Positions 57,464 to 57,535 of a stretch of 64,000 nt of DNA are shown one piece after another. Numbering within the stretch: the first letter of the stretch is position 1; each line of letters begins with the position of its first letter. The stretch lies in the IMG/VR virus record IMGVR_UViG_3300045988_072096, one strand, 5' to 3'. Origin of the DNA: a virus. The notes under the pieces are model-generated. The model did not search any database, was not told the DNA's origin, and worked only from the letters and a program-made list of their open reading frames with translations. Made by a program: the position numbers and the translations under genes.

Positions 57464-57535
57464 TCCCCCCGGCCTCGACTCGAACGGGCAATTCAGAGGT
57501 TAGAGCTCTGGGTATTTCCTTTATACTACAGGGGA
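57464..57535 (-). tRNA. Amber suppressor tRNA, anticodon CUA (decodes UAG)
   Basis: The hand-folded cloverleaf is:
- Acceptor stem UCCCCUG / CGGGGGG, with two G.U pairs.
- D arm GUAU-AAAGGAA-AUAC.
- Anticodon arm CAGAG-CUCUAAC-CUCUG, with the anticodon at plus tag 57501-57503.
- Variable region AAUU.
- T arm GCCCG-UUCGAGU-CG(A)GGC, with one bulged A.
- Discriminator A, with no encoded CCA. Confidence 0.8.

What the first reader, a model, noticed from the sequence alone, without database searches (positions are those of the whole stretch)
57464..57535. Phage-encoded amber suppressor tRNA(CUA) with a bulged T stem
A 72-nt cloverleaf has a perfect anticodon arm CAGAG-CUCUAAC-CUCUG, placing CUA at positions 34-36. 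This supplies the decoding activity that the TAG-rich genes need.

Its unusual features are a U1.G72 pair, a second G.U pair in the acceptor stem, discriminator A, and a one-nucleotide bulge in the T stem. It does not look like a simple point mutant of a canonical tRNA-Gln, so which aminoacyl-tRNA synthetase charges it is an open question.

It lies in a TAG-poor operon, upstream of the late genes in the direction of transcription.
Basis: seen in the sequence. Interest (0 to 1): 0.75.

Follow-up and report, generated by a model that had tools for sequence, protein, structure and literature searches.

The report
Amber suppressor tRNA of recoded crAss-like phage
This is a real but structurally odd phage tRNA that reads the stop codon UAG as glutamine so that a crAss-like gut phage can translate its late genes. 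The mechanism is already known for this phage group, but this version of the tRNA is new and sits at a locus where different suppressor tRNAs are swapped.

Summary
A 72-nt tRNA with anticodon CUA lies on the minus strand at 57535..57464. It has U1·G72, U6·G67, A73 and a one-base bulge (A57475) in the T stem. ARAGORN calls it, Rfam's tRNA model scores it 29.8 bits (threshold 29), and 30 shuffles of the window gave no tRNA calls.

The window is a TAG-recoded Crassvirales phage, 93% identical to cr131_1 (Suoliviridae). ORF coverage rises from 67% to 96% when TAG is read as sense, and there are 240 in-frame TAGs in late genes. TAG means glutamine: TAG exchanges mainly with CAA/CAG against cr131_1, and Gln is the maximum-likelihood residue against non-recoded cr10_1.

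The tRNA sits in a TAG-free block about 3.2 kb upstream of the first TAG-bearing gene. Four variants differ only at position 26 and in three compensated anticodon-stem pairs, so it is under selection. U1, a weak 1-72 pair and A73 fit charging by host GlnRS, which I infer but did not test.

All of this belongs to a published phenomenon. The added points are:
- This allele is the least canonical of the four standard-length alleles.
- Relatives carry at least five unrelated CUA tRNAs at this locus.
- One allele is always linked to a GIY-YIG homing endonuclease, and some alleles are interrupted within the anticodon.

The parts
57464..57535 (-). Amber suppressor tRNA(CUA), 'allele A': 72 nt from U1 (57535) to discriminator A73 (57464). 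No CCA is encoded.
   Evidence: ARAGORN. Rfam RF00005 29.8 bits. Minimum-free-energy cloverleaf. Four natural variants with compensated anticodon-stem changes.
57501..57503 (-). Anticodon 5'-CUA-3' (positions 34-36) in the loop CUCUAAC, which has U33 and A37.
   Evidence: Sequence. ARAGORN and the Rfam alignment agree on the register.
57475..57475 (-). Single bulged A in the 3' strand of the T stem (GCCCG / CG-A-GGC).
   Evidence: The Rfam alignment inserts one base here. The bulged fold scores -20.5 kcal/mol against -10.7 for the unbulged register. The base is invariant in all 4 variants, so there is no covariation evidence for or against it.
57491..57510 (-). Position 26 plus the anticodon arm. 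Position 26 and pairs 27-43, 28-42 and 29-41 are the only positions that vary among homologues.
   Evidence: Window C/CAGAG-CUCUG; L003 and L190 A/UGAAG-CUUCA; L052 G/UGGAG-CUCUA; L205 A/UAGAG-CUCUA. Three pairs show changes on both sides, and 100% of cells are paired.
54251..58776 (-). TAG-free block that contains the tRNA: small ORFs, a tRNA cluster, the gp83-like gene, a dUTPase split by an intron, and a 341-aa gene.
   Evidence: 0 in-frame TAG in the five genes counted. Pfam finds dUTPase and HNH domains.
1..54248 (-). Late (structural) gene block read with TAG as Gln: terminase, portal, major capsid, tail genes and a giant 5867-codon gene.
   Evidence: 240 in-frame TAG in 17,264 codons, which is 26% of Gln-type codons. 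ORF coverage is 67% under code 11 and 96% with TAG as sense. Gene identities come from the cr131_1 annotation.
56822..57445 (-). Gene immediately downstream of the tRNA, homologous to cr131_1 gp83. It marks the right-hand boundary of the exchangeable tRNA cassette.
   Evidence: blastn boundaries. 273 homologues were found, and in the relatives sampled a CUA tRNA gene lies directly upstream, interrupted in a few of them.

Best explanation
The element is a functional phage-encoded amber suppressor tRNA that inserts glutamine at UAG.

Proposed mechanism:
1. It is transcribed with the TAG-free genes at the 5' end of the long minus-strand gene array.
2. Host RNase P, 3' trimming enzymes and the CCA-adding enzyme process it, since no CCA is encoded.
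3. The host's glutaminyl-tRNA synthetase charges it. That enzyme would recognise C34, U35, A37, G10, and an acceptor end with U1, an easily opened U1·G72 pair and A73.
4. It then competes with release factor 1 at UAG.
5. This allows the roughly 240 in-frame UAG codons of the downstream late genes to be read as Gln (genetic code 15).

Shown here: the gene and its fold, the recoding, the Gln meaning of TAG, the gene order, and selection on the tRNA.

Inferred, not shown: expression timing, charging by GlnRS, and how the ribosome and EF-Tu tolerate the T-stem bulge.
For: - Gene and fold: and 95 (0 calls in 30 shuffles).
- Recoding: ORF coverage rises from 67% to 96% and a 5874-aa ORF appears when TAG is read as sense. 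There are 240 in-frame TAG in late genes and none in the tRNA's own block.
- TAG = Gln, test 1: in 8068 codons aligned with cr131_1, 33 of 52 TAG changes are to or from CAA/CAG.
- TAG = Gln, test 2: against the non-recoded relative cr10_1, Gln is the most enriched aligned residue (3.0x) and the maximum-likelihood assignment (lnL -227.1 against -238.8 for Glu).
- Function under selection: four variants from different phage backgrounds are identical at 65 of 72 positions. They differ only at position 26 and at three anticodon-stem pairs, which change with compensation. Flanking DNA is only 78-88% identical or cannot be aligned.
- Necessity: relatives sampled through the downstream gene have a CUA tRNA gene at this spot, interrupted in a few of them. 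The complete cr131_1 genome has only this one and no annotated synthetase or release factor.
- Gln identity, architecture: 88 of 120 cellular tRNAs matching the architecture pattern are tRNA-Gln.
- Gln identity, acceptor end: a Bacteroidia tRNA-Gln (L140) and the phage tRNA-Gln(UUG) of cr131_1 also have U1 and A73, and L140 has the same AAUU variable loop.
- Gln identity, convergence: all five unrelated CUA alleles share U1 and A73, and four of the five a weak or mismatched 1-72 pair; allele E has U1-A72.
- Host enzyme: Bacteroidetes have GlnRS and mostly lack GatCAB (PMC3927822).
- Literature: the same arrangement is described for code-15 crAss-like phages (PMC7886860; bioRxiv 10.1101/2021.08.26.457843; 10.1101/2022.06.29.495998). 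TAG read as Gln was confirmed by metaproteomics in crAss-like phages (PMC9523058, abstract).
Against: - No expression, aminoacylation or suppression data exist for this tRNA.
- Its covariance-model score is marginal (29.8 bits), and the default Rfam scan missed it.
- The T-stem bulge lies in the region EF-Tu contacts and could impair function. It is invariant, so no covariation supports it.
- The E. coli GlnRS identity elements G2-C71, G3-C70 and G73 are absent.
- The acceptor stem and 3' half also resemble tRNA-Asn. A phage tRNA-Asn shares 19 identical nucleotides, and both tRNA-Asn hits rank near the top.
- The architecture pattern used was built partly from a tRNA-Gln, so the Gln enrichment is biased.
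- About a third of the phage genome lies outside the window and could hold another suppressor.
- The Gln signal comes from gene comparisons that include phages using other suppressor alleles.
Confidence: 0.85

Rival explanations
1. The gene is a decaying or non-functional tRNA relic. Suppression is supplied by another tRNA outside the window or by the host.
For: The Rfam score is the lowest of the four standard-length alleles: 29.8-33.5 bits against 46-53 for alleles B, C and D. It has a bulged T stem and two G·U pairs in the acceptor stem. The default Rfam scan missed it. About 33 kb of the genome is unseen.
Against: 65 of 72 positions are invariant across phage backgrounds whose flanks have diverged by 12-22% or cannot be aligned. 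The only changes are compensated stem pairs, which is the signature of purifying selection. All the usual tertiary-interaction nucleotides are present: U8, A14, G18G19, U33, G53, U54U55C56, A58, C61. The complete relative cr131_1 has no second CUA tRNA.
Confidence: 0.06
2. It is a working suppressor but inserts an amino acid other than Gln, for example Asn-, Trp-, Tyr-, Glu- or Lys-type charging or pyrrolysine.
For: ARAGORN labels it tRNA-Pyl. The acceptor stem UCCCCUG/CGGGGGG and the 3' half resemble tRNA-Asn. 18 of 120 architecture matches are tRNA-Trp. Glu is the second-best residue in the likelihood test.
Against: TAG exchanges with CAA/CAG in 33 of 52 changes against cr131_1. Exchanges with Trp (1), Tyr (2), Lys (2), Glu (5) and Asn (2) codons are rare. 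Gln beats Glu by 11.7 log-likelihood units. AsnRS identity needs the GUU anticodon and G73 (established knowledge), and both are absent. The features that define tRNA-Pyl are also absent: this tRNA has a 5-bp anticodon stem, 2 nt between the acceptor and D stems, and G18G19 and TΨC are present.
Confidence: 0.05
3. The element's main role is as a target or passenger of mobile DNA (a homing-endonuclease recognition site or recombination hotspot), and decoding is secondary.
For: Near-identical phages differ exactly here. Nucleotides 15-72 of the window's tRNA are replaced in cr131_1, L184 and L185 by a different CUA tRNA plus a GIY-YIG endonuclease gene, with the same boundaries each time. Other alleles carry intervening sequences inside the anticodon.
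Against: Every allele, however unrelated, keeps the CUA anticodon, U1 and A73, and all but allele E a weak 1-72 pair. That only makes sense if decoding is what is selected. Mobility explains the turnover, not the existence of the tRNA.
Confidence: 0.04

Closest known systems
Sup-CTA (amber suppressor) tRNAs of code-15 crAss-like phages (Yutin et al. 2021, PMC7886860; Borges et al., bioRxiv 10.1101/2021.08.26.457843; Pfennig et al., bioRxiv 10.1101/2022.06.29.495998; Peters et al. 2022, PMC9523058)
   Same: It is a phage-encoded CUA tRNA in a Crassvirales genome whose late genes carry in-frame TAG read as Gln. The tRNA sits in standard-code DNA at the 5' end of the recoded strand, and the host GlnRS is presumed to charge it.
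   Different: This sequence is absent from GenBank phages. Besides the window it was found in only five other metagenomic contigs. It has a bulged T stem and a marginal model score, which may put it among the 'non-canonical, hard to detect' suppressors those papers suspected; they used a 35-bit tRNAscan-SE cut-off, a different model that I could not run.
cr131_1 (NC_055902, Cacepaovirus simiae) tRNA KNV60_gt02, annotated tRNA-Gln
   Same: It occupies the same locus in a 93%-identical genome, between the same upstream flank and the gp83/dUTPase genes. It has the same CUA anticodon, U1 and A73.
   Different: The tRNA body is unrelated from about nucleotide 15 onward. It lacks G18G19 and C56 and has no T-stem bulge. 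It is followed by a GIY-YIG homing endonuclease gene that the window lacks.
E. coli supE-type suppression and GlnRS mischarging of amber suppressors (established knowledge; cited by Borges et al.)
   Same: The CUA anticodon keeps C34 and U35, the main GlnRS anticodon determinants. A weak 1-72 pair favours GlnRS, which opens that pair on binding.
   Different: It is not a one-base derivative of a resident tRNA-Gln. It has C2-G71, C3-G70 and A73 where E. coli has G2-C71, G3-C70 and G73. A73 matches the Bacteroidia tRNA-Gln and the phage tRNA-Gln(UUG) seen here.
Phage T4 SegB, a GIY-YIG homing endonuclease inside the tRNA gene cluster (PMC2330249)
   Same: In relatives, a free-standing GIY-YIG endonuclease gene sits next to a phage tRNA gene, and the adjacent tRNA sequence is inherited together with it.
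   Different: This applies to allele B in relatives, not to the window's allele. Cleavage of allele A by that enzyme is untested. Here the linked tRNA is the essential suppressor of a recoded genome.
tRNA-Pyl (ARAGORN's label)
   Same: Only the CUA anticodon.
   Different: It lacks the defining tRNA-Pyl architecture, and no pyl genes are annotated in the complete relative.

Membership tests
tRNA (Rfam RF00005) | Covariance-model score at or above the gathering threshold of 29 bits | tested here: met
   29.8 bits, E=9e-4 in a 1.6-kb search. The L205 variant scores 33.5 bits. The result is marginal, and the default whole-window scan did not report it.
tRNA (Rfam RF00005) | Cloverleaf with conserved tertiary nucleotides (U8, A14, G18G19, U33, purine 37, G53, T54Ψ55C56, A58, C61) | tested here: met
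   All are present in the sequence. The cloverleaf is the minimum-free-energy fold. The deviation is a one-base bulge in the T stem.
tRNA (Rfam RF00005) | Helices supported by covariation | tested here: inconclusive
   The anticodon stem has 3 of 5 pairs with changes on both sides and 100% pairing. The acceptor, D and T stems are invariant in the variants available (three in the count, four with L205), so they give no information.
Amber suppressor tRNA | Anticodon CUA at positions 34-36 in a 7-nt loop with U33 | tested here: met
   ARAGORN and the Rfam alignment agree. The loop is CUCUAAC.
Amber suppressor tRNA | Actual read-through of UAG in vivo | not testable with these tools
   Only indirect evidence is available: 240 in-frame TAG in conserved late genes downstream.
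Genetic code 15 phage (TAG = Gln) | In-frame TAG in conserved genes, and ORFs restored when TAG is read as sense | tested here: met
   Coverage rises from 67% to 96%. The portal, terminase and tail genes carry TAG.
Genetic code 15 phage (TAG = Gln) | TAG positions correspond to Gln in homologues | tested here: met
   33 of 52 TAG changes against cr131_1 are to or from CAA/CAG. Gln is the maximum-likelihood residue against cr10_1. In the portal alignment, conserved Q columns align with TAG.
tRNA-Gln identity (GlnRS substrate) | U1 with a weak 1-72 pair, and the discriminator base used by the host lineage | tested here: met
   The tRNA has U1·G72 and A73. A Bacteroidia tRNA-Gln (L140) and the cr131_1 tRNA-Gln(UUG) have U1-A72 and A73. 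All five suppressor alleles share U1 and A73, and four of them a weak 1-72 pair; allele E has U1-A72.
tRNA-Gln identity (GlnRS substrate) | E. coli-type acceptor determinants G2-C71, G3-C70 and G73 | tested here: not met
   The tRNA has C2-G71, C3-G70 and A73. These determinants are defined for the E. coli enzyme. The Bacteroidia tRNA-Gln seen here has G2-C71, C3-G70 and A73.
tRNA-Gln identity (GlnRS substrate) | Aminoacylation by GlnRS | not testable with these tools
   The host phylum has GlnRS and mostly lacks GatCAB (PMC3927822).
tRNA-Pyl | 6-bp anticodon stem, 3-nt variable loop, 1 nt between the acceptor and D stems, small D loop without G18G19 | tested here: not met
   The tRNA has a 5-bp anticodon stem, a 4-nt variable loop, U8 and A9 between the stems, and a D loop AAAGGAA containing GG.
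Homing-endonuclease-linked tRNA cassette (T4 SegB-like) | An endonuclease gene adjacent to the tRNA | tested here: not met
   The window has no endonuclease gene next to the tRNA: the next gene starts 19 nt downstream and has no Pfam match. The feature is met only for allele B in relatives.

The most novel reading that the evidence does not exclude
The suppressor-tRNA locus is a contested site where mobile elements compete. The essential CUA tRNA of this recoded phage clade is repeatedly replaced by unrelated alleles that travel with selfish elements: a GIY-YIG homing endonuclease, or intervening sequences inserted inside the anticodon. On this reading the window's allele A is the endonuclease-free form. 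Its compensated changes, confined to the anticodon stem while every other position stays frozen, would reflect selection to escape a sequence-specific nuclease while keeping GlnRS identity. That nuclease could be the homing enzyme or a host anticodon-arm nuclease.
Probability: 0.3. Interest if true: 0.6.

Novelty: new member of a known kind. Interest (0 to 1): 0.35.

Why it matters
The finding itself is a textbook example of a published mechanism: code-15 crAss-like phages carry a suppressor tRNA at the head of the recoded late operon. Its practical value lies in three points.

1. It is a concrete case of a suppressor that standard pipelines can miss. It scores 29.8 bits and was not reported by a default whole-window Rfam scan. 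This bears on why published surveys fail to find a suppressor in a sizeable share of TAG-recoded phages (about 60% in one survey, about a quarter in another).

2. Five unrelated alleles at one locus all share U1 and A73, and four of them a weak or mismatched 1-72 pair. This gives a natural-variation readout of what a Bacteroidales GlnRS needs from a CUA tRNA. That is directly testable and useful for engineering amber suppression in Bacteroides.

3. The allele swapping linked to a homing endonuclease, and the interruptions within the anticodon, suggest that mobile elements exploit the one gene a recoded phage cannot lose.

Tried and rejected
- Two collection scans were wasted on patterns with a spacing error of one base. 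One search returned only unrelated CUA tRNAs.
- An exact search for the anticodon arm in IMG/VR found nothing, because the stem varies among homologues.
- blastn of the tRNA against GenBank phages gave only chance T-arm matches to mycobacteriophage tRNA-Trp.
- The broad architecture scan of IMG/VR returned 41 CUA tRNAs, of which only L003 is a homologue.
- The unbulged register, which would give G73, was considered because a phage tRNA-Asn (L002) has an identical 19-nt 3' segment with a perfect T stem. I rejected it on energy (-10.7 against -20.5 kcal/mol) and because it creates three mismatches. ARAGORN nevertheless draws that register.
- The distant portal alignment alone was too noisy to assign the amino acid. 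I replaced it with codon-pair counts and a likelihood test.
- Rfam did not recognise the roughly 190-nt inserts in interrupted suppressor genes of relatives as group I introns, even at E<=1. Their group I nature therefore rests only on a P1-like pairing, a terminal G, and core-like motifs I recognised by eye.
- Pfam found no domain in the gene downstream of the tRNA. One distant homologue carries a precomputed PI-PLC-X hit.
- The 2026 preprint on an amber-reassigned Segatella copri crassvirus could not be read.

Full report

Yes. Read on the minus strand, window 57535..57464 is:

UCCCCUG-UA-GUAU-AAAGGAA-AUAC-C-CAGAG-CUCUAAC-CUCUG-AAUU-GCCCG-UUCGAGU-CG[A]GGC-CGGGGGG-A.

The anticodon CUA is at 57503-57501. 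The acceptor stem has U1·G72 and U6·G67, and the discriminator is A73. No CCA is encoded. One A (57475) is bulged from the 3' strand of the T stem.

- ARAGORN calls a CUA tRNA at 57463-57536(-). Its 'tRNA-Pyl' label only names the anticodon.
- Rfam's tRNA model gives 29.8 bits (gathering score 29, E=9e-4) when 1.6 kb is searched, and it inserts a base at exactly the bulge position.
- The default whole-window Rfam scan did not report it.
- The bulged cloverleaf is the minimum-free-energy structure at -20.5 kcal/mol. The unbulged register would give G73 and three mismatches, and it scores -10.7 kcal/mol. ARAGORN draws that register with an 8-pair acceptor stem.
- ARAGORN made no tRNA call in 30 dinucleotide shuffles of the window.
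- Fold energy alone is not distinctive (z = -0.54).

**2. What is the surrounding genome?**

The window is a TAG-recoded member of the Crassvirales.

- ORFs of at least 100 aa cover 67% of the window under code 11 and 96% if TAG is sense. A 5874-aa ORF with 88 TAG then appears.
- The closest deposited genome is crAss-like phage cr131_1 (NC_055902; Suoliviridae, Oafivirinae, Cacepaovirus simiae; rhesus faeces), at 93.5% identity.
- Nearly all genes from 58776 down to position 1 are on the minus strand.
- The five genes counted between 58776 and 54251, around and just downstream of the tRNA, have no in-frame TAG. From 54248 downstream there are 240 TAG in 17,264 codons, which is 26% of all Gln-type codons.

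**3. What does TAG mean?**

I ran two independent tests.

(a) Codon-by-codon comparison with cr131_1 covered 8068 aligned codons. 73 TAG are shared. Of 52 TAG changes, 33 are to or from CAA/CAG, including the two-step CAA. Changes to codons for Tyr, Trp, Lys, Leu or Ser, which lie one step away, are rare.

(b) tblastn of the window's late proteins against cr10_1, a Suoliviridae genome whose portal has no TAG, aligned 79 TAG positions to residues. Gln is the most enriched residue (3.0x). It is also the maximum-likelihood identity when the window's own 20 amino acids serve as reference profiles (lnL -227.1; Glu -238.8; Lys -240.2).

A portal alignment shows TAG at columns that are Q in crAss001, DAC17 and cr10_1. 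TAG is Gln, as in genetic code 15.

**4. Is the tRNA functional?**

Homologues of this exact tRNA, which I call allele A, are rare.

- They occur in one IMG/VR contig (L003), two metagenome contigs (L052, L053) and two Logan contigs (L190, L205). None was found in GenBank phages.
- The four distinct variants are identical at 65 of 72 positions. They differ only at position 26 and at pairs 27-43 (C-G / U-A), 28-42 (A-U / G-C / G·U) and 29-41 (G-C / A-U).
- All cells remain paired, and three pairs show changes on both sides.
- Flanking DNA in these contigs is 78-88% identical to the window, or cannot be aligned.

This is the signature of a selected RNA. The T arm with its bulge never varies, so the bulge is conserved but covariation neither supports nor refutes it.

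**5. Which synthetase?**

- A scan of 185,579 species genomes used a pattern that both this tRNA and the phage tRNA-Gln(UUG) of cr131_1 satisfy. The pattern specifies a 4-bp D stem, a 7-nt AAnGGnA D loop, a 4-nt variable loop and a UUCGAGU T loop.
- That pattern was partly derived from a tRNA-Gln, so the result is suggestive only. The two Asn hits, and a phage tRNA-Asn (L002), are also similar in the acceptor and T arms.
- A Bacteroidia tRNA-Gln (L140) reads UGCCCAA…UUGGGCA-A, with U1-A72, A73 and the same AAUU variable loop. The cr131_1 tRNA-Gln(UUG) also has U1-A72 and A73.
- Bacteroidetes have GlnRS and mostly lack GatCAB (PMC3927822).
- It is established knowledge that GlnRS reads C34/U35 and opens the 1-72 pair.

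Together with section 3, this makes host GlnRS the most likely charging enzyme. That is inference, not demonstration.

**6. The locus is polymorphic.**

The homology between the window and cr131_1 is near-perfect upstream. It ends at about nucleotide 14 of the tRNA and resumes at the start of the next gene, the gp83 homologue.

- In cr131_1 the intervening 858 bp hold an unrelated CUA tRNA (allele B) plus a GIY-YIG/HTH homing endonuclease gene.
- Allele B was found in five IMG/VR contigs, one of which is cr131_1 itself. It is always followed by that endonuclease gene, even where the enzyme is only 65% identical and the flanks are unrelated.
- A second pair, L052 (allele A) and L185 (allele B plus endonuclease), has 95-98% identical flanks and shows the same exchange boundaries.
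- Using the downstream gene as a handle, I found that sampled relatives carry a CUA tRNA gene at this spot, interrupted in a few of them. There are at least five unrelated alleles.

| Allele | Loci (examples) | Rfam score | Note |
|---|---|---|---|
| A | window, L003, L052, L190, L205 | 29.8-33.5 bits | bulged T stem |
| B | cr131_1, L184-L188 | 46.8 bits | followed by GIY-YIG endonuclease gene |
| C | L189, L191, L193, L204, L206, L210-L214 | 51-53 bits | |
| D | L194-L196 | 46.6 bits | |
| E | L198-L201 | best match is the tRNA-Sec model at 33 bits | long variable arm |

All five alleles share U1, A73 and C3-G70 to C5-G68. Four also have a weak or mismatched 1-72 pair (U·G, U×U, U×C); E has U-A. 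Allele A is the least canonical of the four standard-length alleles.

**7. Comparison with what is known.**

The following are all published:
- suppressor tRNAs in crAss-like phages and TAG read as Gln in late genes (PMC7886860);
- the model in which the suppressor is made from standard-code DNA and charged by host GlnRS (bioRxiv 10.1101/2021.08.26.457843);
- the usual position of Sup-CTA at the 5' end of the recoded strand (bioRxiv 10.1101/2022.06.29.495998);
- proteomic proof of code 15 in crAss-like phages (PMC9523058).

Those studies used a 35-bit tRNAscan-SE cut-off. [quoted passage not shown] The authors suspected non-canonical tRNAs. Allele A is a concrete example of such a tRNA. The link between a GIY-YIG endonuclease and a tRNA has a precedent in T4 SegB (PMC2330249).

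**8. Verdict.**

The finding is a new member of a known kind, so the novelty of the finding as stated is low.

The parts that go beyond the literature I could search are:
- the bulged, low-scoring allele;
- the convergence of five alleles on U1 and A73, and of four of them on a weak 1-72 pair;
- the turnover of the locus driven by mobile elements.

These are worth a modest follow-up.

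Noticed in passing
window 58169-58250 (-): A tRNA with a normal acceptor stem, D arm and T arm but a 17-nt anticodon loop (UUAGCCUUUGGUGAUUA). Rfam scores it 39.6 bits. ARAGORN calls it Ala(AGC), or Ile(AAU) with a 10-nt 'intron'. It is conserved but unannotated in cr131_1, with compensatory changes (27-43 U-A to A-U; 3-70 G·U to C-G). Relatives (L052, L189, L194, L206) have counterparts with different 15-17-nt loops. Its function is unknown.
   Followed up: partly
window 58063-58133 (-): A tRNA-like element with an 8-bp acceptor-type stem and a canonical T arm but no convincing anticodon arm (weak tRNA-Sec hit, 23.8 bits). 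It is conserved in cr131_1 (with a C-G to A-U compensatory change), L052, L190, L193, L204 and L205.
   Followed up: partly
window 55700-55916 (-), with ORF 55634-56485 (-) and dUTPase exon 56560-56820 (-): A group I intron (Rfam 55.4 bits) and an HNH endonuclease ORF lie in the gap that splits the dUTPase gene. L052, L189, L204 and L205 lack this insertion. The HNH ORF ends at a TAG.
   Followed up: partly
window 49440-51938 (-) and 61856-63526 (+): The terminase large subunit and the ThyX-like gene both contain long insertions with LAGLIDADG-like motifs, suggesting an intein or homing endonuclease. I saw these only in the translations and did not test them against Pfam.
   Followed up: no
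L054 9258-10135 (cr131_1); L184 3226-4107; L185 9555-10428; L186 2563-3436; L188 (minus strand) tRNA 6921-6993 and the adjacent endonuclease gene: A second, unrelated CUA tRNA (allele B, lacking G18G19 and C56) is always immediately followed by a GIY-YIG+HTH homing endonuclease gene. It replaces nucleotides 15-72 of the window-type tRNA in otherwise 95-98% identical phages.
   Followed up: yes
L197 about 1403-1592; L208 and L209 about 1164-1354; L202 and L203 about 1955-2940: In some relatives the suppressor tRNA gene is interrupted inside the anticodon, between U35 and A36. The insert is about 190 nt, or about 990 nt with a 300-aa ORF. It shows a P1-like pairing (CUCU/GGAG), ends in G, and has motifs resembling a group I core. 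Rfam's group I model does not hit it, even at E<=1.
   Followed up: partly
L052 4118-4190 (-); L191 2913-2985; L193 2913-2985; L206-L211 1413-1485: A tRNA with a conserved 8-nt anticodon loop (UAUAAACG; ARAGORN reports a 4-base anticodon 'taaa' in most of these loci) sits directly after the suppressor tRNA in several relatives. Its anticodon stem shows compensatory changes. L191 also has one with 'tgaa'. These could be quadruplet-reading or otherwise unconventional decoders. None is present in the window.
   Followed up: no
L198-L201, tRNA at 2840-2928 (358-446 in L201): Another suppressor allele (E) is 89 nt long with a long variable arm. Its best Rfam match is the tRNA-Sec model (33 bits, below threshold). 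Whether it also carries Gln is unknown.
   Followed up: no
window 40532-42043 (-): The major capsid gene has no TAG and no CAA: all 15 Gln codons are CAG. The neighbouring gene 39697-40449 also has no TAG. The most highly expressed late genes seem to avoid the recoded codon.
   Followed up: no
window 60320-60799 (+): A gene on the opposite strand, outside the late block, has one in-frame TAG at 60656-60658. Its cr131_1 homologue (gp10) is annotated at full length, so recoding is not strictly confined to the late operon.
   Followed up: no
L189 2116-2189: In the sampled relative whose downstream gp83-like protein is closest to the window's (98% identity), the CUA tRNA (allele C) has C33 instead of the near-universal U33, and U1×C72. 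This could be a damaged copy or an assembly error.
   Followed up: no
L055 40571-40934 (cr131_1) and L062 26352-26737 (cr10_1): Both relatives carry an annotated tmRNA-like gene. ARAGORN reports it as a permuted form in cr131_1, with tag peptide GNYNVVDYTHVA. No counterpart lies in the window, and its role in a stop-codon-recoded phage is unexplored.
   Followed up: no
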